DNA from: Schmidtea polychroa
Lineage: Eukaryota
Assembly (NCBI GenBank): GCA_044892525.1
Contig: CM097885.1
Coordinates: 19,780,001-19,844,000, forward strand
Reading direction: 5' to 3'
DNA length: 64,000 bases
The translations under genes were made by a program, and so were the position numbers. The notes beneath the pieces were generated by a model. The model made no database searches. It saw only the letters and a list, made by a program, of their open reading frames with translations, and was not told the origin of the DNA. This document shows positions 23,871 through 39,700 of the stretch, in pieces. Within the stretch, counting starts at the first letter, position 1; each line of letters opens with the position of its first letter.

Positions 23871-24109
23871 CACTCATACCTCGCTATACGGCTGCTCTTT
23901 ATACGGCTTTTCGCTATAACGGCCTACTTTAATTACGGCACTTTTTCGATTTACGGCCTAAAATGTTTCGTTATACGGCCAAAAAAAGTGTGGAATTGTA
24001 TATGGAATTGTATCAAAATACTTGATTCGTTATGAGTAGTATGATGTGAGCTCCCCAGATCATGAGCTCCCCGCATCACATATACCCCCTCCCCCCCCGG
24101 AAAAAAAAA

Positions 24110-25210
24110 TTTTTAGAACGATGCCACATATTTTTAGAACTATTACGTAACCAATGCCTAATATTTTTAGAACTATTACGTAATTTTTTAAAATTAAGTG
24201 ATCTGGCGGGCTCACACTTTTTTTCATCCCAAAAATTAATGTTCCCATTATCCGAATTTATTGGACGATACCTCATCTTAAAGCTCAGTCCAAGACCTTT
24301 CGAATGAGCCATAGAAGGTATCATCATTATTATTAACAAAGAGAATGACTCACCCAACGATGTCTAATATTTTTAGAACGATGCCTAATATTTTTCGAAC
24401 TATTGCGTAATCGATGCCTAATATTTTTAGAACGATGTCTAATATTTTTAGAATGGTGCCTCTTATTTTTAGAACTATTACGTAACCGACGCCTAATATT
24501 TTTAGAACTATTACGTAATTTTTTTAAATTAAGTGATCTGGCGGGCTCACACTTTTTTTCATCCCAAAAATTAATGTTCTCGTCAACAAATTTTATTAAC
24601 CGATACCTCATCTTAAAGCTCAGTCCAAGACCTTTCGAATGAGCTATAGGTATCTTATATATCTTTAATAGTTTTAATGTTATTAACATTTGATGACCAC
24701 CATCTTTTCAAAGTTAAATTATTATTATTTTCCAAAATATTATTAAGTGATCTGGCGGGCTCACACTTTTTTTCATCCCAAAAATTAATGTTCCCATTAT
24801 CCGAATTTATTGGACGATACCTCAACTTAAAGCTCAGTCCAAGACCTTTCGAATGATCCATAGAAGGTATCATCATCATTATTATTAACAAAGAGAATGA
24901 CTCACCCAATGACTCACCCAACGATGTCTAATATTTTTAGAACGATGCCTAATATTTTTAGAACGATGCCTAATATTTTAGAACGATGCCTAATATTTTT
25001 AGAACGATGCCTAATATTTTTAGAACTATTACGTAACCAATGTCACATATTTTTAGAACGATTATGTCATATTTTTAGAACGATGCCACATATTTTTAGA
25101 ATGATTACGTCATAATTTTAGAACGATGCCTAATATTTTTAGAATGATTACGTCATAATTTTAGAACGATGCCTAATATTTTTAGAATGGTGCCTCTTAA
25201 TTTTAGAACT
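24110..25210. repeat. Terminal arrays: ~21-bp TTTTAGAACGATGCCTAATATT units and three larger units with AAGTGATCTGGCGGGCTCACAC; mirrored at ~37655-38845
   Basis: Direct reading; accounts for the repetitive HRSKNIR ORFs. Confidence 0.9.
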
Positions 25211-36700: not shown

Positions 36701-39700
36701 GACTAGTATTTGCAATAATAATAATATTGATAATAATAATTGTTAATTGGTTGAGTGTGTGTTTTTATGTTTTTGACTAATATTTGCAATAATAATAATA
36801 ATAATAATAATAATAATAATAATAATAATAATAATAATAATAATAATAATAAAGTTTAATGGGTTGTATATGTGTGTAGAAGATATTTTAGGTTTTCACT
36901 AATATTGATACAAATAATTGTTAATGGGTCGTGTGTGTGTGTGTGTAAACCATATTTTAGATTTTTTTGATAATAATAATAATAATAATAATAATAATAA
37001 TAATAATAATAATAATACTTTGAAATTGTATTTGAAAATAATTTACGACATGTTGATTGTGAGCAGTACCTTTGTGACCATTACCCTTAGGGGGACAGAA
37101 TATCTTGTCGGATAGACTAGGAGTATATATAATAATAATCATAATAATAATATTAATAATAATAATAATATTGATTAAAACTTTGAAAATAATTCTTTGA
37201 AAATAATACTTTGAACAATATTTGATGTAAAAGTTCCTGAAATAATCATGAAAATGTTGAAAATCGTGAAAATATTGAAAATGTAGAAAATTATGAAAAT
37301 ATTGATAATTATTAAAAAATGCAAATGATGAAAATGTTGAAAATCATGAAATTGATGTAGAAATTAAGTTTTATGAATAATTGCAAATAATAATAATAAT
37401 AATAATAATAATAATAATAATAATAATAATAATAATTTTGAAAATAACATCTTCCACACGGGCGTTAATATTTTAAAAGAAAATATTGAAAATTAAAAAA
37501 TAATAATATGTAATCAACGATTTAAACAAATTATATTATTTCGTATTCGATAATTAAAACAAAAAATTATATAATCAATCATTTAAACAAATTATATAAT
37601 CAACGATTTAAACAAAATTAAATTATTATATAATCGATAATTAAAACAAAATTATTAGTTCTAAAAATAAGAGGCATCGTTCTAAAAATATGACGTAATC
37701 ATTCTAAAAATAAGAGGCACCATTCTAAAAATATTTGGCATCGTTCTAAAAATATTAGACATCGATTACGTAATAGTTCTAAAAATATTAGGCATCATTC
37801 TAAAATTAAAAGGCATCGTTCTAAAAATATTAGACATCGTTCTAAAATTATGACGTAATCATTCTAAAAATATTAGGCATCATTCTAGAAATATTAGGCA
37901 TCGTTCTAAAAATAAGAGGCATCGTTCTAAAAATATTAGACATCGTTCTAAAAATATTAGGCATCATTCTAAAAATTATTACGTAATCATTCTAAAAATA
38001 TTAGACATCGTTGGGTGAGTCATTGGGTGAGTCATTCTCTTTGTTAATAATAATGATGATGATACCTTCTATGGATCATTCGAAAGGTCTTGGACTGAGC
38101 TTTAAGTTGAGGTATCGTCCAATAAATTCGGATAATGGGAACATTAATTTTTGGGATGAAAAAAAGTGTGAGCCCGCCAGATCACTTAATAATATTTTGG
38201 AAAATAATAATAATTTAACGTTGAAAAGATGGTGGTCATCAATTGTTAATAACATTAAAACTATTAAAGATATATAAGATACCTATAGCTCATTCGAAAG
38301 GTCTTGGACTGAGCTTTAAGATGAGGTATCGGTTAATAAAATTTGTTAACGAGAACATTAATTTTTGGGATGAAAAAAAGTGTGAGCCCGCCAGATCACT
38401 TAATTTAAAAAAATTATGTAATAGTTCTAAAAATATTAGGCTTTGGTTACGTAATAGTTCTAAAAATAAGAGGCACCATTCTAAAAATATTAGACATCGT
38501 TCTAAAAATATTAGACATCGTTCTAAAAATATTAGGCATCGATTACATAATAGTTCGAAAAATATTAGGCATCGTTCTAAAAATATTAGACATCGTTGGG
38601 TGAGTCATTCTCTTTGTTAATAATAATGATGATGATACCTTCTATGGCTCATTCGAAAGGTCTTGCACTGAGCTTTAAGATGAGGTATCGTCCAATAAAT
38701 TCGGATAATGGGAACATTAATTTTTGGGATGAAAAAAAGTGTGAGCCCGCCAGATCACTTAATTTAAAAAAATTACGTAATAGTTCTAAAAATATTAGGC
38801 ATTGGTTACGTAATAGTTCTAAAAATATGTGGCATCGTTCTAAAAAATTTTTTTTTCCGGGGGGTGGGGTATGTGATGCGGGGAGCTCATGATCTGGGGA
38901 GCTCACATCATACTACTGTTATGCGGCGTTTCGGTTTGCGGCCAACTTTCCTGGAACGTATCTAGGCCATAAAGCGAGGTATGAGTGTACCAACAATCAA
39001 GTTCCAGCAACCGGCTAACAACGAGGTACTACCAACTAACTAGCAATTACTAAGTACTTACAATCAGCTAACAACTAGATACCAACAACAGAATGGAGAA
39101 TAATATTAAATATATGTTATTTATCTACTGTTAAGAGTTATGTTGTAAGTATTTGAATAAAAATTGATTTATCTTTAAAATAAAATCTTCTTCATTGAAG
39201 AAAATGATACTCATTGGATAAAAATTTAATAAAAATGCAACTGATTGACTTAACTCAAGGCACTACTTGTAAGATGTTCTGAAAAGTAGATAAAGATTAT
39301 ACATTGAATTAAAATACAAAAAAATAATGTAAAAATAACGAGTAAAAATTTGAAATAATTCGAAACATAGTAAATAAATATCATAAAAATGTAATTAAAG
39401 GATAAAAAAAGAACTTTAAATTCTAGTCAATAATAAGCCAGTAAATATTTATCTTAAATACTGATCATTCAAGTTATTAATTAATTTAAATATGAATCAT
39501 TTAAGATCTTCATTCAAGTAACTTACTTCAAGTAATTACCATTGTTATTTTGGAAAATAATATTTGACGAGCTTCGAAGAGCTAAATTTTGTTTAGCGAG
39601 ATATTTTATTATTTCAACAATTCGTTCTAACACACCGCGCCAATGTCGTTTTTCTCTTTCATATACTTTTTCAAGTACCCTATCTATTGTGCTAAACTTT

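What the first reader, a model, noticed from the sequence alone, without database searches (positions are those of the whole stretch)
24035..38917. 14.9-kb foldback Polinton derivative: ~7-kb inverted arms, no core genes, true integration signature
Seen: AGTAGT/ACTACT ends, an exact 6-bp TSD (GTTATG), arms 24035-31380 and 32118-38917 around a ~740-bp spacer, and no recognisable polymerase, integrase or capsid gene. Established: Polintons have such termini and 6-bp TSDs, but their TIRs are usually at most about 1 kb. Inference: this is a near-genome-length snap-back (defective-interfering or satellite-like) genome made by template switching during protein-primed replication and integrated in trans by a helper Polinton. 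Its size could be maintained by packaging.
Basis: partly seen in the sequence, partly recalled or inferred. Interest (0 to 1): 0.88.

Follow-up and report, generated by a model that had tools for sequence, protein, structure and literature searches.

The report
Foldback Polinton satellite carrying Alu-like RNA
This stretch is a real jumping element built as a near mirror image, one of hundreds that borrow the ends and probably the enzymes of a virus-like Polinton in the same animal genome, and it carries a small conserved piece resembling the signal-recognition-particle RNA, which may let it tamper with host protein synthesis.

Summary
Real insertion: AGTAGT/ACTACT ends, GTTATG duplication, and a single GTTATG in empty paralogous sites. 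It belongs to a family of roughly 700-1000 copies (estimate); 23 of 27 two-ended copies have exact 6-bp TSDs. Autonomous Polintons of 16-17 kb with the same ends exist in the genome.

Corrections: this copy's arms are not continuous. It is a mosaic of a 1.2-kb TIR, unmatched segments and a 4.0-kb inner repeat with 9 mismatches. It is not gene-less: each arm holds a 110-aa Polinton-family orphan ORF and a 44-nt unit matching the 5' Alu domain of the host 7SL RNA, with all 16 pairs kept and three double-sided changes.

Arms are homogenised within copies (0.04% versus 2.5% between copies). Helper-derived snap-backs, a helper/satellite hybrid and mismatched-end copies with intact TSDs point to recombination in a shared free replicating pool. 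Replication, packaging and expression were not shown.

The parts
24035..38917 (.). Whole non-autonomous foldback element, 14,883 bp
24029..24034 (+). Left copy of the 6-bp target duplication GTTATG
   Evidence: single copy in empty sites
38918..38923 (+). Right copy of the target duplication
24035..25270 (+). Left outer TIR, shared with the autonomous Polinton (84-94% in long matches; 99% over the first 200 bp to helper copy L050)
37596..38917 (-). Right outer TIR
25270..26470 (+). Left-only segment; 25435-25630 is 99.5% identical to the helper's unique right end and holds the 3' part of the helper's acidic ORF
37012..37596 (-). Right-only segment, 97-100% identical to another satellite subfamily (L033/L035/L037)
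26472..27360 (+). Diverged subterminal arm with short tandem units (partner 36109-37012)
27360..31380 (+). Left inner arm
   Evidence: 9 mismatches in 3982 columns against the right inner arm
32118..36108 (-). Right inner arm
31381..32117 (.). Central spacer, shared by at least 40 other loci together with both arm ends
27625..27668 (-). 44-nt unit matching the 5' Alu domain of the host 7SL RNA, enclosed by a 13-14-bp flanking inverted repeat (about 27608-27683)
35799..35842 (+). Mirror copy of the Alu-domain-like unit
27395..27545 (.). GC-rich, multi-hairpin, highly conserved block next to the Alu-like unit; identity unknown
   Evidence: no Rfam match
29698..30030 (-). 110-aa ORF of an orphan Polinton gene family (CxxC motif, all-helical model); a 47-nt GT-AG segment (30031-30077) ends directly before the ATG and a TATA-like box lies at 30116-30124
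33444..33776 (+). Mirror copy of the 110-aa ORF (one residue differs)
25300..25395 (+). First of ten copies of a ~90-bp motif (also near 25966, 26156, 27186, 28535, 31274, 32224, 34932, 36281, 37114); the helper has one or two per end
23869..24034 (+). Left part of the interrupted target MITE (right part 38918-38989)

Best explanation
The element is one copy of a high-copy satellite of the resident Polinton (Maverick). It keeps the Polinton ends, which act as replication origins and integrase sites, and lacks all core genes. Shown: integration with 6-bp TSDs; ends shared with autonomous copies; arm-to-arm homogenisation inside each copy; exchange of segments between satellite subfamilies and with the helper; helper-derived fold-backs. 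Inferred: free linear copies are replicated by the helper's protein-primed polymerase through strand displacement. A displaced strand of a palindromic genome folds into an almost complete duplex that rebuilds the origin and lets one arm correct the other. Template switching at short inverted microhomologies creates new fold-backs, and switching between co-replicating molecules creates mosaics such as this copy. The helper integrase inserts them. The lineage founder was probably a fold-back of an older Polinton, since it retains a diverged Polinton gene. The Alu-domain unit is most likely a retained functional RNA module binding SRP9/14; that step is the least certain.
For: 23 of 27 two-ended copies have exact TSDs. 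Helper C1:13994720-14010943 has rve+chromo integrase, A32 ATPase and TBP and a double-jelly-roll-like capsid protein; a second helper copy gave the C5 protease match. Its first 25 nt are identical to those of several satellites. Arm divergence on a 1-kb marker is 0.04% within copies (17 of 21 identical) against 2.5% between copies (210 pairs). Five of the 23 TSD-bearing copies have different first 25 nt at the two ends, and 7 of 7 further mismatched-end pairs over 5 kb have exact TSDs; conversion after insertion would have had under 25 bp of outer homology. One verified helper/satellite hybrid with TSD (L140+L171). Six inverted ATPase pairs among 150 scored hits; both that were read are helper right-end fold-backs with TSDs and 5-bp exact junction microhomology. 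The 110-aa ORF has pN/pS 0.13-0.50 in 10 of 10 variants (not independent) and a 42% homologue right after the TBP gene of a sister Polinton. Alu-like unit: 16 of 16 pairs kept, three double-sided changes, G4/U23/G24 kept; 1,461 exact copies.
Against: No free, replicating or packaged form was observed; all data are from one assembly. No autonomous ancestor of the interior was found. The junction microhomology rests on two cases, and a loose control (best match in random window pairs) reached 5 bp or more in about 70% of trials. Arm identity could also come from conversion in the chromosome or from assembly polishing. The covariation rests on two distinct sequences (61 of 500 shuffles reach it; 3% for random bases at the same positions). 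The window copy of the RNA unit has a mismatch in its closing helix and folds no better than shuffles (z -1.0, against -2.8 in L031). No canonical Pol III A or B box was found, although the host 7SL gene has none by the same scan either. Both helper polymerase genes that I read in full are broken, and no library named the polymerase; it is identified from recalled family-B motifs and gene context.
Confidence: 0.7

Rival explanations
1. Giant MITE/Foldback-like element moved only by the helper integrase from chromosomal donors, with arms kept identical by gene conversion in the chromosome and no polymerase-driven replication.
For: Only integrated copies are seen. Inner arms are more symmetrical than outer arms in mosaic copies, as centre-driven conversion could produce. 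Copies shorter than a full genome integrate as well.
Against: Mismatched ends within 25 bp of the terminus with intact TSDs, helper/satellite hybrids and fold-backs of helper genes with TSDs are more simply explained by recombination among free molecules.
Confidence: 0.2
2. The satellite is real but its cargo is passive: the Alu-like unit is a dead 7SL fragment and the 110-aa ORF a leftover, both hitch-hiking and kept uniform by recent sweeps.
For: No expression shown. The 110-aa module is missing from all 20 other elements compared, and 3 of 10 variants have stops. Recombination could spread one conserved block without selection.
Against: Ten differences from host 7SL, seven in helices, none breaking a pair (0.25% for ten random changes). 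Columns around the unit vary at 1-2 of 50 against 14-27 of 50 in several nearby bins, although one other bin is equally quiet. The 13-bp inverted pair at this spacing occurs only around the unit in a 6.4-kb arm.
Confidence: 0.4
3. The Alu-like unit is a free 7SL-derived SINE that inserted into the satellite ancestor.
For: 7SL-derived SINEs exist and the 46-nt 5' domain can support retrotransposition (PMC11760393, abstract).
Against: 70 of the first 100 exact sites lie in 35 minus/plus pairs under 25 kb apart, and 10 of 10 unpaired sites that were read lie in satellite arms. No poly(A) tail follows the unit.
Confidence: 0.1
4. Assembly artefact (mirrored reads).
For: One copy (L051/52) and two 1-kb end pairs have mirrored flanks and no TSD. 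No long reads were laid.
Against: In this copy the flanks are different halves of a MITE with an empty-site match, the arms differ over more than 1 kb, and each side matches other subfamilies at 99-100%. Many copies show the same architecture with their own TSDs.
Confidence: 0.02

Closest known systems
Polinton/Maverick elements (polintoviruses)
   Same: 6-bp TSD, terminal inverted repeats, ends identical to autonomous copies in this genome; carries one diverged Polinton gene.
   Different: No polymerase, integrase, capsid, protease or ATPase. Inverted arms of 5-7 kb in typical copies against 584 bp (PMC3014272, passage) or 744 bp (bioRxiv 2024.01.15.575659, passages) in described elements and about 1.2 kb in the local helper.
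Non-autonomous Polinton derivatives (Kapitonov and Jurka 2006; recalled, paper not held)
   Same: Ends retained, mobility in trans.
   Different: Near genome length, palindromic, concerted arm evolution, own RNA-like cargo.
Snap-back genomes of adeno-associated virus (PMC8235507, abstract) and inverted-repeat-derived gutless adenovirus genomes (recalled; only the reference line of Lieber 1999 was seen in PMC3185507)
   Same: One end duplicated head-to-head around a short spacer, helper-dependent.
   Different: Those arise anew in infection or in vectors; this family is integrated, heritable, diversified into subfamilies and present in hundreds of copies.
Drosophila Foldback elements and MITEs (mostly recalled; Foldback mentioned in PMC6431247 passage)
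   Same: Long inverted arms, non-coding bulk, internal tandem units.
   Different: Ends and TSD length are those of a Polinton, and arms include an ORF and an RNA-like unit.
7SL Alu domain and Alu/BC200 RNAs
   Same: 5' domain helices, loop-loop pairs and the G4/U23/G24 triad named in PMC12265939 (passage) are all present.
   Different: Only the 44-nt 5' domain; helix 5 is replaced by a helix made with upstream sequence, like the artificial circularly permuted Alu RNA mentioned in PMC4238359 (passage); carried by a DNA element, no poly(A) tail; expression unshown.

Membership tests
Autonomous Polinton/Maverick | 6-bp target site duplication | tested here: met
Autonomous Polinton/Maverick | Terminal inverted repeats with AG...CT microsatellite-like ends (end motif recalled) | tested here: met
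Autonomous Polinton/Maverick | Encodes protein-primed PolB and retroviral-type integrase | tested here: not met
   longest ATG ORF of coding character 110 aa; no tblastn hit of helper polymerase or integrase in the element
Autonomous Polinton/Maverick | Capsid proteins, packaging ATPase, protease | tested here: not met
Non-autonomous Polinton derivative | Ends shared with an autonomous element of the same genome | tested here: met
Non-autonomous Polinton derivative | Dispersed copies with different TSDs | tested here: met
   23 of 27 two-ended copies
Non-autonomous Polinton derivative | Mobilisation by helper proteins demonstrated | not testable with these tools
   only indirect: shared ends, hybrids
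Snap-back defective-interfering genome | One genome end duplicated in inverted orientation around a short loop | tested here: met
   family architecture
Snap-back defective-interfering genome | Sequence derived directly from the helper genome | tested here: not met
   interior does not match helper; met only by separate elements L170 and L172
Snap-back defective-interfering genome | Packaged in helper capsids and interfering with helper replication | not testable with these tools
   size ceiling below helper length only
SRP Alu-domain RNA | Helices 2, 3, 4 and loop-loop pairing | tested here: met
   16 of 16 pairs; minimum-energy fold equals this structure
SRP Alu-domain RNA | U-turn triad G4, U23, G24 | tested here: met
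   invariant columns; triad from PMC12265939 passage
SRP Alu-domain RNA | Rfam Metazoa_SRP gathering score (full 7SL RNA) | tested here: not met
   30.9 bits against 70; only the 5' domain aligns well
SRP Alu-domain RNA | Transcribed as a discrete RNA | tested here: inconclusive
   only contigs of runs guessed to be RNA were available
SRP Alu-domain RNA | Binds SRP9/14 | not testable with these tools
   none
7SL-derived SINE | Free dispersed copies with tail and own TSD | tested here: not met
   10 of 10 unpaired exact sites lie in satellite arms; diverged copies not surveyed

The most novel reading that the evidence does not exclude
A heritable satellite virus of an animal Polinton: a palindromic genome replicated and packaged by its helper, recombining with it, and encoding a naturally circularly permuted SRP Alu-domain RNA that captures SRP9/14 to change translation in the cell where helper and satellite multiply, in the role adenovirus VA RNA plays for its virus (VA role recalled).
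Probability: 0.25. Interest if true: 0.92.

Novelty: new variant of a known kind. Interest (0 to 1): 0.72.

Why it matters
Whether animal Polintons replicate as free linear DNA and form particles is mostly inferred from their genes. This genome preserves a fossil record of the expected by-products: fold-backs of the helper, helper/satellite hybrids, mismatched-end recombinants and per-copy arm homogenisation, in hundreds of copies. That makes the replication model testable by sequencing alone. The Alu-domain-like unit would be a 7SL-derived RNA module on a virus-like DNA element. I found none in the listings of my paper searches, and Alu RNA with SRP9/14 is known to block translation initiation (PMC4357698, abstract).

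Tried and rejected
Central MITE seeding the palindrome: rejected; of 10 spacer hits read with flanks, 9 lay in long-armed copies and one in a one-armed copy.

1-kb mini elements: both end pairs have mirrored flanks and no TSD, so they are not counted as elements.

22-kb spacings: the one read (L130-L132) is a satellite with an unrelated insertion, not a long-armed helper.

Cargo captured from host subtelomeric arrays: dropped once a homologue appeared inside a sister Polinton; the arrays look like amplified satellite pieces.

Homologues of the 110-aa protein outside this genome: none. The two hits are tandem-repeat proteins and are rejected. Fold searches gave no clear match (best Z 5.3), which does not show that the fold is new.

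tRNA genes: none in the window or six loci. Other Rfam families: nothing convincing. Alu-like core in metagenome contigs: 0 matches.

Expression: no RNA holder listed; three runs guessed to be RNA cover the block as contigs, which cannot show a transcript.

Earlier findings' ends could not be located in 12 short stretches, so family identity with them is unknown. Three primary papers were not held. No supplements were read.
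Full report
Observation. The element runs from AGTAGT at 24035 to ACTACT at 38917 and is flanked by GTTATG on both sides. It interrupts a ~230-bp MITE with at least 40 paralogues; both paralogues read carry one GTTATG at this point. The spacer is 31381-32117. The arms are not continuous. An outer TIR of about 1.2 kb (18 mismatches in 912 columns over the first 0.9 kb) is followed by unmatched segments (left 25270-26470, right 37012-37596), a diverged part, and an inner repeat with 9 mismatches in 3982 columns. 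No core gene remnant was found: 16 helper or sister ORFs gave core-gene hits only in a flank outside one of 19 satellite sequences.

Family. The window lies at G000:C1:19780001-19844000 of a 781-Mb animal assembly. The terminal 301 bp has at least 40 matches at 92-100% (40 scored of 2582 candidates), as does the arm-spacer-arm junction. Of 30 loci examined, 27 had both ends and 23 an exact 6-bp TSD. The four failures were one copy with mirrored flanks, one in a microsatellite, one rearranged and one with 5 of 6 matches. Two of the 23 share one site and may be the same insertion assembled twice. A 25-nt end pattern has 1,554 matches and a 44-nt internal marker 1,461. I estimate 700-1000 satellite copies.

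Helper. C1:13994720-14010943 (16.2 kb) starts with the same 25 nt as several satellites and has a TSD. It encodes an rve+chromo integrase, an A32 ATPase and a TBP-like protein, and a protein resembling double-jelly-roll capsid proteins (score 0.98). A second copy gave the adenovirus-type protease match. Its 1204-aa ORF was not named as a polymerase by Pfam, PHROGs or PDB sequences; I identify it from recalled family-B motifs visible and from context. That gene is broken in both copies read in full. Four more copies match at 97-99%, and 150 of 150 scored ATPase hits are stop-free. Helper and satellite share about 1.4 kb of terminal sequence and a ~90-bp motif present once or twice per helper end and ten times in this element.

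Evidence on replication. On a 1-kb marker the two arms of a copy differ by 0.04% (17 of 21 identical), while copies differ by 2.5% (210 pairs). Arms therefore evolve in concert. This copy is a mosaic: 25435-25630 is 99.5% identical to the helper's unique right end, and the right outer arm is 97-100% identical to another subfamily. Five of 23 TSD-bearing copies have different first 25 nt at their two ends. In the first 31 Mb of C1, 9 of 41 end pairs were mismatched; the 7 longer than 5 kb all have exact TSDs, and the two 1-kb pairs have none. One element of 13.9 kb is a satellite left arm joined to the helper's capsid-integrase-ATPase half, with a TSD. Among 150 ATPase hits, six form inverted pairs 1.3-8.8 kb apart. 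Both that I read are fold-backs of the helper's right end, 7.5 and 8.8 kb, with TSDs and 5-bp exact inverted microhomology at the turn. A loose control gave 5 bp or more in about 70% of random window pairs, so the microhomology is only suggestive. Together these fit recombination and template switching among free, co-replicating molecules before insertion. This is inference; no free DNA was seen.

Size. Of 41 end pairs, 22 contain a minus/plus pair of internal markers; 21 measure 9.0-14.9 kb (median 13.8) and one 32 kb. Helpers measure 16.1-17.1 kb and one-marker forms 6-16 kb. A packaging ceiling is compatible but not shown.

Cargo 1: protein gene. The 110-aa ORF at 29698-30030 (mirror 33444-33776) lies in a module missing from all 20 other elements compared but present in a minority subfamily. 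It has pN/pS of 0.13-0.50 in 10 of 10 variants, which are not independent; 3 of them carry a stop. A 47-nt GT-AG segment ends right before the ATG, and a TATA-like box is kept in the most diverged close variant. The family has at least 150 members at 37-100% in the genome. One, at 42%, follows the TBP gene of a sister Polinton in this window (3575-3919), while the main helper lacks it. It is thus a Polinton gene, with a CxxC motif and an all-helical model (pLDDT 79), and no outside homologue or fold match was found. Its function is unknown; a nuclear accessory role is a guess from its position.

Cargo 2: Alu-domain-like unit. Rfam gives one hit in the left half: Metazoa_SRP at 27570-27668 minus, E 7.7e-6, below the gathering score, with only the 5' domain well aligned. 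Against the host's own 7SL genes the 44-nt unit differs at 10 positions. All 16 helix and loop-loop pairs are kept, three pairs changed on both sides, and G4, U23 and G24 are unchanged. With two distinct sequences the shuffle control is weak (61 of 500). Random bases at the same positions keep all 13 nested pairs in 3% of trials, and ten random changes in 0.25%. A 13-14-bp inverted repeat hugs the unit and is the only such pair in a 6.4-kb arm. With it, the minimum-energy fold is the Alu fold (z -2.8 in L031; z -1.0 in this copy, which has one mismatch). This resembles a circular permutation of the Alu domain. The unit is absent from all helper loci tested and is not a free SINE among exact copies. 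Expression could not be judged, and no Pol III box was found.

Comparison and novelty. It fails membership of autonomous Polintons and meets the testable features of a non-autonomous derivative. It works like a snap-back defective genome but is not a direct snap-back of the present helper. Papers seen: passages of PMC6431247, PMC3014272, bioRxiv 2024.01.15.575659, PMC4238359, PMC3185507 and PMC12265939; abstracts of PMC11760393, PMC4357698 and PMC8235507. Kapitonov and Jurka 2006 and the adenovirus inverted-repeat work are recalled. Listings of searches showed no palindromic Polinton satellite, and 53 and 92 no virus-borne Alu RNA; the library lacks most subscription papers and repeat databases. 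The scan noted gene-less foldback Polinton elements four times elsewhere in this genome. I could not tell whether they are this family, and a word search for the Alu unit found no note.

Verdict. Real, mobile, helper-dependent foldback satellite (confidence 0.7 for the replication-pool mechanism); new variant of a known kind; interest 0.72. The functional Alu RNA reading has probability about 0.25 in its full form.

Noticed in passing
window 1-~7090: Right half of a sister autonomous Polinton (minor capsid, integrase, ATPase, TBP, 110-aa-family gene, acidic ORF), about 80-84% identical to the main helper over most of this part, apparently ending in a different terminal sequence near 7090.
   Followed up: partly
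window 5815-6135 (-): ORF in the sister Polinton with a weak Bcl-2 family match (E 0.0016, 19.4 bits, below cut-off): a possible viral anti-apoptotic gene.
   Followed up: partly
L047/L048 with L134/L135 (C1:13.99-14.02 Mb): The helper copy is itself inserted into the spacer of a foldback satellite; satellites also nest in each other (L146/L147).
   Followed up: partly
L047 and L050 polymerase ORFs: The polymerase ORF carries an endonuclease VII-like segment and is broken in both copies read.
   Followed up: partly
L048:2838-3965 and window 740-1726: The integrase ORF contains an AAT microsatellite of variable length, probably inside an intron.
   Followed up: no
L095, L096, L097 (C3 near 0.88 and 5.1 Mb) and C2:188-189 Mb: Tandem arrays of the 110-aa gene module near scaffold ends; in L095 each ~1-kb unit is joined to what looks like a retroelement fragment (recalled motif).
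   Followed up: partly
C2:31.93-31.98 Mb (L116-L129): Host 7SL genes form a tandem array with a 593-bp period.
   Followed up: no
L051/L052, L152, L153: Element ends with mirrored host flanks and no TSD: either assembly artefacts or chromosomal palindromes seeded by these elements.
   Followed up: partly
window 27395-27545: Highly conserved GC-rich multi-hairpin block beside the Alu-like unit, with no Rfam match; a possible second RNA module.
   Followed up: partly
window 20079-22136 (+): Uninterrupted 685-aa host ORF resembling STRA6-like membrane proteins (resemblance recalled, not tested).
   Followed up: no
window 9791-11565 and 57331-58572: piggyBac-like transposase ORFs (by eye).
   Followed up: no
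window 12221-12903 and 40282-40967: Direct repeat of 687 bp at 96%; ORF pieces at 39523-40290 look like a hAT-type transposase (by eye).
   Followed up: no
window 59916-60229: 45-bp tandem repeat inside a 184-aa open frame.
   Followed up: no
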